64,000 nt of DNA from Escherichia coli (GTDB lineage Bacteria; Pseudomonadota; Gammaproteobacteria; Enterobacterales; Enterobacteriaceae): the NCBI RefSeq assembly GCF_045037415.1, contig NZ_CP173438.1. One strand, 5' to 3'. Position 1 is the first letter of the stretch. Every line of letters begins with the position of its first letter. The notes beneath the pieces were generated by a model. The model did not search any database, had not been told where the DNA came from, and was given only the letters and a program-made list of their open reading frames with translations. A program made the translations under genes and the position numbers. This document shows positions 26,628 through 28,260 of the stretch, piece by piece.

Positions 26628-27476
26628 TTACCTGTCTGCTAATACATTTGGATAGTGCCTGGCAATTATGTCATTTAGCCTGTCAACCAGTTCTGGTTTC
26701 CTGAACGTGATGTGTGCGGAGCCCTTCTTAAAGTATCTGATGCTGAACATCTCATCTTCATAGCACGCTTTGCCCTGAACGGAGCGGATGTGATCATCCA
26801 GCCGAATGATGATATTTTCCCGGCTGTCGGGGATCGGTTTGCCGCTGAACAGATGCAGCATTCTTTCCAGGTCAGCGAGTCGATCTGCCTGTTGCCCGGT
26901 GATAAGATGCAATCCCCATCGGTCCCATCTCACCAGATTGTTGACGATAATTTTATTGCCAAATTTACAGGGGCAATTGGTTTTGTAATTCCAGCTCAGC
27001 CCTCTGAAGAGGTTGATCACACCTCGCTCAAACACGTCATCCTTATTCTGGTGCAGTTGTTCAAACGTACTCAGGATATTCGCCTCGCTGATTTCCGGAA
27101 AGTTATCGTACTCCAGTGAGCGGTACCATGTATCATGGGCCTGCGCATCCATTAATGACAGCATCCCGGAATGTTGCATCAGGTCACGCCAGATTTCGCG
27201 ATCGAGATTGCGGGTGATGGCTTTCATTGCGGTTTCCGGTTTCTCCATGAGCCAGCAGCCGCAGCGAAAATCCTGTTTCATCGCCCAGTCCAGGGCGGTT
27301 TTACCTCCAATACTTTCTGTCAGTACTGAGATTTCTGCCAGTTGCCGGATAAGTGTGTCGATTTGCAGCAGCGCACTCTTTCGTACAGCCAGAATGTGGC
27401 GGATACTGGTTGAGCAGATAACGTCCGTATGTCCGTTGACCAGTTCCGGGCGGGAGATTGTGATATCTGACATCAT
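26628..27476 (-). CDS. Conserved island protein of unknown function (tentatively DUF4942-like)
   Basis: 282-aa ORF with good coding appearance; family name recalled with low certainty. Confidence 0.4.
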   Translation of the reverse strand: MMSDITISRPELVNGHTDVICSTSIRHILAVRKSALLQIDTLIRQLAEISVLTESIGGKTALDWAMKQDFRCGCWLMEKPETAMKAITRNLDREIWRDLMQHSGMLSLMDAQAHDTWYRSLEYDNFPEISEANILSTFEQLHQNKDDVFERGVINLFRGLSWNYKTNCPCKFGNKIIVNNLVRWDRWGLHLITGQQADRLADLERMLHLFSGKPIPDSRENIIIRLDDHIRSVQGKACYEDEMFSIRYFKKGSAHITFRKPELVDRLNDIIARHYPNVLADR

Positions 27477-27771
27477 CGTTTTTCCTTTTGGTTTATAAAC
27501 GAAAACGCCAGCCGTATTCAGGCTGGCGTCAGTGGAATGAAGTCTGGTGAGTAAGACTCACCGGTTCTGTTGCAGAAGCTGCAGTTGGCGCAGGGTACGG
27601 ATATCTTCCCTGGCCTGTTTAATGCAGGGCAGCAGTGCTGCTGAATCCGTTTTATCCTCATCGTTGTCGAAGATAATCCCTGATTCGCAGTCAATATTGT
27701 CCTGCAGCCACGCAATCAGAATATACAGCGCTGTTTCCGTGGTTAATGATTTCATGTTGTGAATTTCCGGG

Positions 27772-28260
27772 TTACCAGTCGAAAGTGGGTAAATCCGGCA
27801 GGCATTCAGTGCTGGCATCCAGATGAATGAGACTGACGCCATAACGTCGGGTAAGTGTGACAACCAGACGGCGGAACGTTTTTGACAGCCCCAGGCGTTT
27901 AAGCCGCAGAACCGGGTATGACCACGCATCGGTACGTAACAGATATCCGCTACCTGTAAAATGAATCCATTCTGATTCGCCGGTGTCATTCGTCTGATGC
28001 GACAGCGAGTACAGCCAGGCGTTGTCTGTTTCCGTGATATGCGCGGTACTACAGCGTATACCGCTCAGGGCAGCAGAGGGGGGTATGCTGTCTGTTGAGG
28101 TCCGGTCAGATTCATCAACAACACGAAGGGAGTAGCCATTATCGCAGACCACGTTAATCAGTTCGGCAAGCTCAACACCATCGACGTCAACGACAATTCG
28201 CCCCATGTTCAGTGCCTGTACGTTAACGCTGTCAGCTTCCAGCGTCAGGGCCAGTTTCAT
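27772..28260 (-). CDS. Hypothetical protein immediately downstream of cbtA (YeeW-position gene)
   Basis: 162-aa ORF whose start overlaps the cbtA stop by 4 bp. Confidence 0.4.

What the first reader, a model, noticed from the sequence alone, without database searches (positions are those of the whole stretch)
26628..28260. Block of uncharacterised genes between the AbiE-like module and cbtA
Three co-directional ORFs (282 aa, about 65 aa at 27558..27755, and 162 aa overlapping the cbtA stop) lie between two toxin-antitoxin-type modules at the distal island end. I cannot assign them functions. Genes co-transcribed downstream of cbtA may modulate toxin activity or form part of an anti-phage or addiction module.
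Basis: seen in the sequence. Interest (0 to 1): 0.45.

Follow-up and report, generated by a model that had tools for sequence, protein, structure and literature searches.

The report
Known orphan genes ending cbtA island
The three unassigned genes after the cbtA toxin gene are real, conserved members of three already catalogued but uncharacterised families (DUF5983, DUF957, DUF4942) whose relatives sit next to the transfer origin of conjugative plasmids, so they look more like "establishment" genes of mobile DNA than parts of the toxin-antitoxin pair.

Summary
On the minus strand lie DUF5983/YeeW (27772-28260, 162 aa), DUF957 (27558-27755, 65 aa) and DUF4942/YdiA (26628-27476, 282 aa). They sit between cbeA-cbtA and an AbiEi/AbiEii module whose AbiEii gene is frameshifted. 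The window is 100% identical to E. coli ST131 chromosomes. All three are under purifying selection (dN/dS 0.14-0.22, cbtA 0.19), and the block is in 3,436 of 5,426 complete E. coli genomes.

New here:
- cbtA and DUF5983 overlap by NTGA.
- A 9-bp GC hairpin plus T-tract (27530-27504) precedes DUF4942 in 68 Enterobacterales loci, with compensatory changes in 8 of 9 pairs. It most likely terminates the cbeA-cbtA(-DUF5983-DUF957) operon.
- DUF5983 and DUF957 are optional inserts (26 and 21 of 80 loci).
- A published programmed-frameshift idea is not supported.

All three families also occur without cbtA on conjugative plasmids: DUF4942 on 4,975 plasmids, next to oriT in IncI1. Samuel et al. 2024 list DUF4942 and DUF5983 among the top 100 leading-region families. 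A few relatives fuse DUF4942 to an N6-adenine methyltransferase domain that is absent here.

The most likely role is early establishment or anti-defence of the incoming element, not toxin modulation. The biochemistry is unknown and no solved structure resembles either model. Interest is low to moderate.

The parts
28723..29091 (-). cbeA (YeeU-family type IV antitoxin), first gene of the operon that carries two of the three ORFs
   Evidence: PF06154 E 2.6e-50; RefSeq annotation of the identical locus
28257..28634 (-). cbtA (YeeV-family toxin), long 125-aa variant; its stop overlaps the DUF5983 start (ATGA)
   Evidence: PF06755 E 1.8e-60. Sequence. The overlap is ATGA in 14 of 21 loci that hold both genes, and 4 more have GTGA or TTGA at the cbtA stop
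27772..28260 (-). DUF5983 family protein (YeeW / Aec77 / L0008), 162 aa. It has an acidic N-domain (residues 1-58, PF25638) and a C-domain (69-162, PF19419)
27558..27755 (-). DUF957 protein (Aec78 / L0009), 65 aa, acidic (pI 4.5), with its own ATG 16 nt after the DUF5983 stop
   Evidence: RefSeq WP_000839293.1; dN/dS 0.15; 16 invariant residues across 13 genera-level homologues; homologues on 1,413 plasmids; natural fusions to the DUF5983 N-domain in L014, L019 and L025. There is no model in current Pfam
27495..27530 (-). Intrinsic-terminator-type element: 10-bp GC-rich hairpin (GACGCCAGCC-TGAATAC-GGCTGGCGTT) followed by TTCGTTTAT, 28 nt after the DUF957 stop and about 25 nt before the DUF4942 start
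   Evidence: Terminator scan. RNA fold -27.3 kcal/mol, z -3.7. Present in all 7 E. coli paralogues. In 68 distinct loci 93.8% of cells are paired, 8 of 9 pairs have changes on both sides, and 0 of 500 shuffles reach the observed value. No Rfam family matches
26628..27476 (-). [not shown]

Best explanation
The three ORFs are functional genes of three catalogued but uncharacterised families. They belong to the conserved, co-directional backbone at the integrase-distal end of tRNA-inserted enterobacterial islands: DUF905, DUF932, ArdB/KlcA, RadC-JAB, DUF987, CbeA, CbtA, then optionally DUF5983 and DUF957, then DUF4942. This backbone is the chromosomal counterpart of the leading region of conjugative plasmids.

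Shown: DUF5983 and DUF957 sit inside the cbeA-cbtA transcription unit, with an NTGA overlap and short gaps. They are optional inserts. A conserved hairpin plus T-tract then closes that unit. DUF4942 follows the hairpin and is the last backbone gene.

Inferred: DUF4942 is expressed at a lower or separately controlled level, by terminator read-through or an unrecognised promoter. Like their plasmid relatives next to oriT, the three proteins act early after the element enters a new cell to help it establish, by counteracting host defences or reprogramming the host. They do not act as parts of the CbtA/CbeA pair.

For DUF4942 specifically: it is the stand-alone form of the N-terminal module that a few phage and metagenome relatives fuse to an N6-adenine methyltransferase core lacking any other recognition domain. 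Its conserved Lys/Arg-rich, basic C-terminal half suggests it binds nucleic acid. I infer a non-catalytic DNA-binding or target-recognition-like factor. DUF5983 (N-domain) and DUF957 probably work as one unit, because they are naturally fused in some species.
For: Genes are real and selected.

Operon anatomy: ATGA overlap, variable short gaps before DUF957, and the terminator scan, fold and covariation. The hairpin follows whichever gene precedes DUF4942.

Backbone position: the same gene order at five different chromosomal sites in E. coli, with DUF4942 last. A tRNA-Phe 3'-end repeat lies about 120 bp after its stop in L006 and L007. In 80 loci from many genera, CbtA is upstream in 70, DUF5983 in 26 and DUF957 in 21.

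Independence from cbtA:
- DUF4942 is on 4,975 plasmids, 4,034 of them conjugative.
- In IncI1 it is the last leading-region gene next to mobC/nikA, co-oriented with psiB, psiA and ardA.
- In IncL/M and an IncFII-typed plasmid it sits among antirestriction, ssb and JAB genes near mobA/traI.
- A DUF5983 protein occupies the oriT-proximal slot in pQnrS1-1502262.
- DUF957 is on 1,413 plasmids, mostly of IncHI2 size.

Methyltransferase link: phrog_6263. Fusions P0341, P0347 and P0386 have MTS/Methyltransf domains with EPSAGxG and NPPF motifs. Phage proteins annotated as DNA methyltransferase contain the domain. The C-half of the window protein has pI 9.3.

DUF5983_N-DUF957 fusions.
Against: - No experiment bears on any of the three proteins.
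- No oriT, relaxase or similarity to plasmid oriT-proximal DNA was found at the island end. So 'leading region' is homology of gene content and orientation, not a demonstrated transfer function of this island.
- The close link of the enterobacterial DUF4942 subfamily to cbtA (70 of 80 loci) could also reflect a functional tie.
- The terminator has an interrupted T-tract, and its efficiency is unknown.
- No promoter for DUF4942 was detected.
- AF2 confidence for DUF5983 is low in the N-domain.
Confidence: 0.55

Rival explanations
1. DUF5983 and DUF957 (and perhaps DUF4942) are extra components of the CbtA/CbeA type IV toxin-antitoxin system. They could be a second antitoxin, a chaperone, or a sensor that tunes or triggers the toxin.
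For: They lie in the same operon, with translational coupling to cbtA. The long 125-aa CbtA variant goes with DUF5983, whereas the short 106-aa variant abuts DUF4942. DUF4942 is directly downstream of cbtA in 70 of 80 loci. A TA survey lists DUF5983 as the constant downstream 'partner' of CbtA (PMC10790755). A preprint makes the same association.
Against: DUF5983 and DUF957 are absent from about two thirds of cbtA-DUF4942 loci. All three families occur on plasmids with no cbtA nearby. K-12 CP4-44, the system in which CbtA and CbeA were characterised (my own knowledge), has only a truncated DUF5983 N-domain and lacks DUF957 and DUF4942. A conserved terminator separates DUF4942 from the operon.
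Confidence: 0.2
2. The block is an anti-phage (abortive-infection-type) defence module acting with the neighbouring TA and AbiE genes.
For: It is located between two TA/Abi-type modules at an island end. Relatives are phage-associated.
Against: None of the three proteins hits any of 5,027 PADLOC models, even at E = 1. The AbiE module is an add-on seen only in the ST131-type pheV island and is frameshifted, and it is absent from the other islands. Occurrence inside phage genomes and in plasmid leading regions is the signature of counter-defence or establishment genes, not of host defence.
Confidence: 0.08
3. DUF4942 is itself a DNA methyltransferase, as older annotations say ('restriction methylase', 'methyltransferase').
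For: Source names. Homologous domains lie inside phage proteins annotated as DNA methyltransferases.
Against: Pfam finds only PF13708 and no methyltransferase domain. In the fused relatives, the SAM-binding (EPSAGxG) and catalytic (NPPF) motifs lie in a separate C-terminal domain of about 180 aa that the window protein lacks. No such domain is encoded in the window or within 7 kb in 80 related loci. The model shows no Rossmann-like methyltransferase neighbour.
Confidence: 0.04
4. DUF957 is produced as a fusion to DUF5983 by programmed ribosomal frameshifting (proposed for AntiFam ANF00264 in bioRxiv 10.64898/2026.06.09.728211). In the window the 143-aa ORF 27558-27989 would be its trace.
For: In the window and in L002, L003 and L008 the DUF957 frame stays open for 78-135 codons upstream, overlapping the 3' end of DUF5983. 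Annotated fusion proteins exist.
Against: The frame offset between the two genes differs among paralogues (+1 or +2), and the gap is 11, 16 or 19 nt. In 4 of 7 E. coli copies the DUF957 frame is open for only 15 codons upstream. Every copy has its own ATG, and most have an AGGA 7 nt upstream. The real fusions (L014, L019, L025) are in-frame deletions that join the DUF5983 N-domain to DUF957, not frameshift products. L002's apparent fusion is a frameshift mutation flagged as a pseudogene. That ANF00264 equals DUF957 is my inference.
Confidence: 0.03

Closest known systems
[not shown]
   Same: The protein families are the same: 32-38% identity over at least 94% of DUF4942, and 29-46% over the DUF5983 C-domain. 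The uniform gene orientation matches, as do the companions (DUF905, DUF932/YubP, ArdB/KlcA, JAB/RadC, TA genes). The position is terminal, next to the end that would enter first.
   Different: Here the genes are chromosomal, in a tRNA-inserted island with no relaxase or recognisable oriT nearby. They are wedged behind a cbeA-cbtA pair that the plasmids examined lack. Early expression after transfer has not been shown for this island.
CbtA/CbeA (YeeV/YeeU) type IV toxin-antitoxin operon of CP4-44-like elements, with YeeW
   Same: The operon is the same. K-12 YeeW is 71% identical to the first 52 residues of the window DUF5983, and the stop/start overlap with cbtA is the same.
   Different: K-12 retains only the truncated N-domain and has lost the DUF5983 C-domain, DUF957 and DUF4942. 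No role of YeeW in the TA pair is known.
Phage and plasmid orphan N6-adenine DNA methyltransferases with an N-terminal DUF4942 module (phrog_6263; phiPSA1 gp22; P0341, P0347, P0386)
   Same: They share the DUF4942 domain and occur in mobile elements in early or accessory regions.
   Different: The window protein lacks the whole catalytic domain (motifs EPSAGxG and NPPF), so it cannot methylate by itself.
Known small acidic anti-restriction proteins (ArdA, ArdB/KlcA, Ocr)
   Same: The genomic neighbourhood matches, with ArdB/KlcA five genes upstream (six with the strain-variable 214-aa ORF). DUF957 and the DUF5983 N-domain are small and acidic (pI 4.5 and 4.1).
   Different: There is no sequence or structural similarity. 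The resemblance is only in composition and context.

Membership tests
Pfam PF13708 (DUF4942) | Score above the curated gathering threshold over the full domain | tested here: met
   229.5 bits against a cut-off of 25, profile positions 1-189 of 190
Pfam PF25638 + PF19419 (DUF5983 N- and C-terminal domains) | Both domain models above their gathering thresholds | tested here: met
   109.9 and 77.4 bits against a cut-off of 27
DUF957 (NCBI naming; former Pfam family) | Match to the family model | tested here: inconclusive
   No model in the current Pfam or NCBIfam copies. The identical RefSeq protein WP_000839293.1 is named DUF957, and plasmid homologues carry the same name.
CbtA/CbeA type IV toxin-antitoxin system (as additional components) | Obligate co-occurrence with the toxin gene | tested here: not met
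   DUF5983 is in 26 and DUF957 in 21 of 80 loci, of which 70 carry cbtA. All three families are on plasmids without cbtA.
CbtA/CbeA type IV toxin-antitoxin system (as additional components) | Effect on toxin activity or neutralisation; physical interaction with the toxin or antitoxin | not testable with these tools
   Needs toxicity and rescue assays and interaction assays
Plasmid leading-region (early establishment / anti-defence) genes | Family enriched next to oriT and on the strand transcribable from the transferred DNA | tested here: met
   Samuel et al. Supplementary Table 1, families 24, 76 and 72, plus direct inspection of IncI1, IncL/M, IncFII-typed and pQnrS1 plasmids
Plasmid leading-region (early establishment / anti-defence) genes | An oriT/relaxase next to this particular copy, and expression early after transfer | tested here: not met
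   No similarity to plasmid oriT-proximal DNA was found. DNA downstream of DUF4942 diverges between islands, and no relaxase is annotated in the neighbourhood. Early expression is not testable here.
SAM-dependent DNA methyltransferase (legacy annotation of DUF4942) | SAM-binding motif I and catalytic (D/N/S)PP(Y/F) motif IV in a Rossmann-like domain | tested here: not met
   Only PF13708 is found. The motifs lie in a separate domain of fused relatives, absent from the window and from 80 loci.
Known anti-phage defence systems (PADLOC-DB) | Match to any defence-protein model | tested here: not met
   0 families for the three proteins at E up to 1. The neighbours AbiEi and AbiEii match strongly in the same search.
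Rho-independent (intrinsic) terminator | Stable GC-rich hairpin directly followed by a T-rich tract, conserved in structure | tested here: met
   (93.8% of cells paired, 8 of 9 pairs with compensatory changes). Actual termination has not been measured.
Programmed ribosomal frameshift fusion (DUF5983-DUF957) | Conserved frame relation and an overlapping open frame with a shift site | tested here: not met
   The offset is +1 or +2, gaps are 11-19 nt, and the frame is closed 15 codons upstream in 4 of 7 copies
Glyoxalase/VOC fold (proposed for DUF5983 in bioRxiv 10.1101/2024.01.30.577995) | Structural similarity to VOC-fold proteins | tested here: inconclusive
   [not shown]

The most novel reading that the evidence does not exclude
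The terminal backbone of these 'cryptic prophage'-type islands is a working leading region. On this reading the island is mobilised by conjugation and enters new cells from the DUF4942 end. DUF4942 (a methyltransferase-less recognition-like module) and the DUF5983_N/DUF957 pair are new kinds of early anti-defence or host-reprogramming proteins. The conserved hairpin sets how much DUF4942 is made relative to the toxin operon.
Probability: 0.2. Interest if true: 0.65.

Novelty: already known. Interest (0 to 1): 0.33.

Why it matters
These three families are among the commonest genes of unknown function in E. coli pathogenicity islands. The block occurs at several copies per genome (median 2) in 3,436 of 5,426 complete genomes. 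Two of the families are also among the 100 largest gene families enriched in the leading regions of conjugative plasmids that spread antibiotic resistance. Knowing what they do would bear on how incoming mobile DNA survives its first minutes in a new host, and on whether tRNA-inserted islands in ExPEC are still transferable. For this particular window the practical result is more modest. The genes are ordinary, already catalogued island backbone. The work here supplies the operon boundary, the optional nature of DUF5983 and DUF957, and a reason not to treat them as toxin-antitoxin components.

Tried and rejected
1. NCBIfam and PADLOC scans of the three proteins found nothing. PHROGs gave only families of unknown function, plus the methyltransferase family phrog_6263.
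2. Sequence and profile searches against PDB chains for DUF4942, DUF5983 and DUF957 returned chance-level hits only.
4. The programmed-frameshift idea was rejected.
5. I looked for a methyltransferase partner gene in the window and in 80 loci and found none.
6. I looked for an oriT. There was no similarity to IncI1, pQnrS1 or IncL/M oriT-proximal DNA, and no conserved DNA lies beyond DUF4942 except a tRNA-Phe 3'-end repeat in two islands.
7. No Rfam family matched the hairpin.
8. K-12 yoeF was tested as a possible DUF4942 remnant and is unrelated.
9. The first related-loci run with the 78-sequence alignment failed for lack of a conserved stretch. The retry returned only Enterobacterales at 57-93% identity, so distant contexts rest on five contig look-ups.
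10. Two literature searches were uninformative ('yeeW' alone, and 'ydiA' plus 'leading region').
11. The two homologous-protein searches listed only close relatives.

Full report
**What is there**

The window matches E. coli ST131-type chromosomes at 100% identity, for example MNCRE44 and JJ2434. The finding lies at the kps-proximal end of the large island that also carries iha, nan genes and Ag43.

On the minus strand the order is as follows:
- cbeA, 28723-29091
- cbtA, 28257-28634
- a 162-aa ORF, 27772-28260, whose ATG overlaps the cbtA stop (ATGA)
- a 65-aa ORF, 27558-27755, 16 nt further on
- a hairpin
- a 282-aa ORF, 26628-27476
- AbiEi, 26164-26559
- a frameshifted AbiEii, 25238-26171
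- an IS110 fragment, then kpsF

Pfam assigns the 282-aa protein to DUF4942 (E 3e-68). It assigns the 162-aa protein to DUF5983_N plus DUF5983 (E 5e-32 and 1e-21). RefSeq names the identical 65-aa protein DUF957. Older island papers call the trio YeeW/L0008, L0009 and L0010 (PMC6980539). Source names include Aec77 and Aec79.

**Are they real genes?**

The three-gene block covers at least 80% of the query in 3,436 of 5,426 complete E. coli genomes, with a median of two places per genome. I took seven paralogous copies that differ by up to about 14% in DNA and sit at different chromosomal sites: next to kps, paoD, tRNA-Ser/ghrA, setC, yghD and cadC.

Pairwise dN/dS across these copies is 0.22 for DUF5983, 0.15 for DUF957 and 0.14 for DUF4942. 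For cbtA it is 0.19. Some decay occurs. DUF5983 is frameshifted in L002, and DUF4942 has an in-frame deletion in L007. In 80 loci from other Enterobacterales, 74 DUF4942 genes are uninterrupted.

**Operon anatomy**

The stop of cbtA overlaps the DUF5983 start. The overlap is ATGA in 14 of 21 loci that hold both genes. Four of the remaining seven have GTGA or TTGA at the same spot, and the other three show no such overlap.

DUF957 follows after 11, 16 or 19 nt, with its own ATG. The frame relation to DUF5983 differs among copies. The DUF957 frame is open upstream for only 15 codons in four of seven copies. So the 143-aa ORF in the window (27558-27989) is a chance extension.

This also means the programmed-frameshift proposal in a 2026 preprint for AntiFam ANF00264 is not supported. 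I infer, but could not verify, that ANF00264 is DUF957. Real fusions do exist. In Serratia sp. DD3 and Hafnia alvei the DUF5983 N-domain is joined in frame to DUF957, with the C-domain deleted (L014, L019, L025). This argues that the N-domain and DUF957 work together.

**A conserved terminator-type hairpin**

A 10-bp GC-rich hairpin followed by TTCGTTTAT lies 28 nt after the DUF957 stop (27530-27504, minus strand). The RNA fold is -27.3 kcal/mol with z -3.7. It is present in all seven E. coli copies.

I aligned 68 distinct upstream regions of DUF4942 from many genera. A 9-pair helix is kept in 93.8% of cells, and 8 of 9 pairs show changes on both sides (for example A-U 33, U-A 19, U-G 8, C-G 3, G-C 1 at one pair). 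None of 500 shuffles reaches the observed values, and slid controls pair in 27-46% of cells.

The hairpin follows whichever gene precedes DUF4942, whether DUF957, DUF5983 or cbtA itself. No Rfam family matches. I read it as the terminator of the cbeA-cbtA(-DUF5983-DUF957) unit. DUF4942 would then be made by read-through or from an undetected promoter. That last step is inference.

**Co-occurrence**

In 80 Enterobacterales loci found through DUF4942 (57-93% identity), cbtA lies upstream and co-directional in 70. DUF5983 is present in only 26 and DUF957 in 21. Where they are absent, a short 106-aa CbtA abuts DUF4942. The long 125-aa CbtA goes with DUF5983. DUF4942 is the last backbone gene. Beyond it the islands diverge, and two of them show the tRNA-Phe 3'-end repeat about 120 bp after its stop.

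**Beyond the islands**

DUF4942 is a large family, with 2,092 clusters at 50% identity. Distant stand-alone members sit among small ORFs on phage-like contigs.

A few members, roughly 4 of the best 150, carry a C-terminal class I methyltransferase domain with EPSAGxG and NPPF motifs. Phage proteins annotated as DNA methyltransferases contain the domain at their N-terminal side. The window protein has no such domain, and no such gene lies in the window or within 7 kb in the 80 loci.

The decisive context comes from plasmids:
- DUF4942 homologues (32-38% identity, at least 94% coverage) are on 4,975 plasmids, 4,034 of them conjugative.
- In an IncI1 plasmid it is the last leading-region gene next to mobC/nikA-nikB, co-oriented with psiB, psiA and ardA.
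- In IncL/M (pOXA-48-type) and an IncFII-typed plasmid it sits with antirestriction, ssb, DUF1380 and JAB genes near mobA/traI.
- A DUF5983 protein holds the equivalent oriT-proximal slot in pQnrS1-1502262.
- DUF957 proteins are on 1,413 plasmids, mostly IncHI2-sized conjugative ones.
- None of these contexts includes cbtA.

**Structure**

**Interpretation**

The best-supported reading is that these are establishment-type genes of the leading-region kind, housed in the island backbone. DUF5983 and DUF957 are hitch-hiking inside the cbeA-cbtA operon. DUF4942 is a separately dosed terminal gene.

The TA-component reading keeps some weight because of the operon structure and the cbtA linkage. It is weakened by three things: the optional presence of DUF5983 and DUF957, the cbtA-free plasmid homologues, and K-12 CP4-44. 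CP4-44 retains only a truncated YeeW (71% identical to the N-domain) and lacks DUF957 and DUF4942. That CbtA and CbeA were characterised in K-12 is my own knowledge of the literature.

A defence role has no support. A catalytic methyltransferase role fails the motif test. No oriT was found at the island end. 'Leading region' is therefore a statement about homology and orientation, not about a demonstrated transfer function of this island.

**Verdict**

This is ordinary, already catalogued island backbone whose biochemical function remains unknown. The window holds nothing unusual in itself. What this analysis adds is the operon boundary with covariation support, the domain-fusion evidence, the rejection of the frameshift idea, and the positional parallel with plasmid leading regions.

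Noticed in passing
window 25238-26171 (-), 26164-26559 (-): The AbiEi/AbiEii module downstream of DUF4942 has an intact AbiEi (PADLOC E 2e-51), but AbiEii is split into two frames (246 aa plus a 73-aa tail) and RefSeq flags it as frameshifted. The module appears only in the ST131-type pheV island and one relative (L002), not in the other islands examined.
   Followed up: partly
window 27495-27530 (-); also L002-L087 upstream of DUF4942: A conserved hairpin plus T-tract, with strong covariation, lies immediately upstream of DUF4942 across Enterobacterales. Outside E. coli it is preceded by a conserved GCATAAT(G) motif that resembles a -10 hexamer. If that motif is a promoter, the hairpin could instead be a 5'-terminal stabiliser of the DUF4942 mRNA.
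   Followed up: partly
L014 6609-6920, L019 613-978, L025 6540-6896: Natural in-frame fusions of the DUF5983 N-domain to DUF957, with the C-domain lost, occur in Serratia sp. DD3 (several copies per genome) and Hafnia alvei.
   Followed up: partly
window 29141-29785 (-): A 214-aa ORF between DUF987 and cbeA has no Pfam hit but matches phrog_5162 (E 1e-34). It is present in some island copies (L001-L003, L035) and absent in others (L004-L007), so it is another optional insert in the backbone.
   Followed up: no
window 28257-28634 (-) and the CbtA genes of L008-L087: CbtA comes in a long form (about 125 aa, with a basic C-terminal tail) and a short form (106 aa, ending ...RATGLMNT). The long form accompanies DUF5983 and the short form abuts DUF4942 directly.
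   Followed up: partly
L100 6719-7285 (plasmid pQnrS1-1502262); L096 8962-9810 (IncI1 pEc1500_CTX): DUF5983 and DUF4942 proteins occupy the same slot in two related MOBP plasmids: the last leading-region gene before a small reverse ORF and the relaxosome genes. They look interchangeable at the position that enters the recipient first.
   Followed up: partly
window 8000-16000 and 52000-60000: Two long stretches have low G+C (about 30% and 36-42%) with strongly positive GC skew. The first lies on the far side of the kps export genes, which run from about 16600 to 23900, so it is probably the serotype-specific capsule region 2, though the stretch itself was not annotated here. The second was not examined.
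   Followed up: no
window 24651-24806 (-) and surroundings, 24000-25200: An IS110-family transposase fragment and AT-rich non-coding DNA lie between AbiEii and kpsF. This is probably the scar of the island boundary. No tRNA gene was found anywhere in the window.
   Followed up: no
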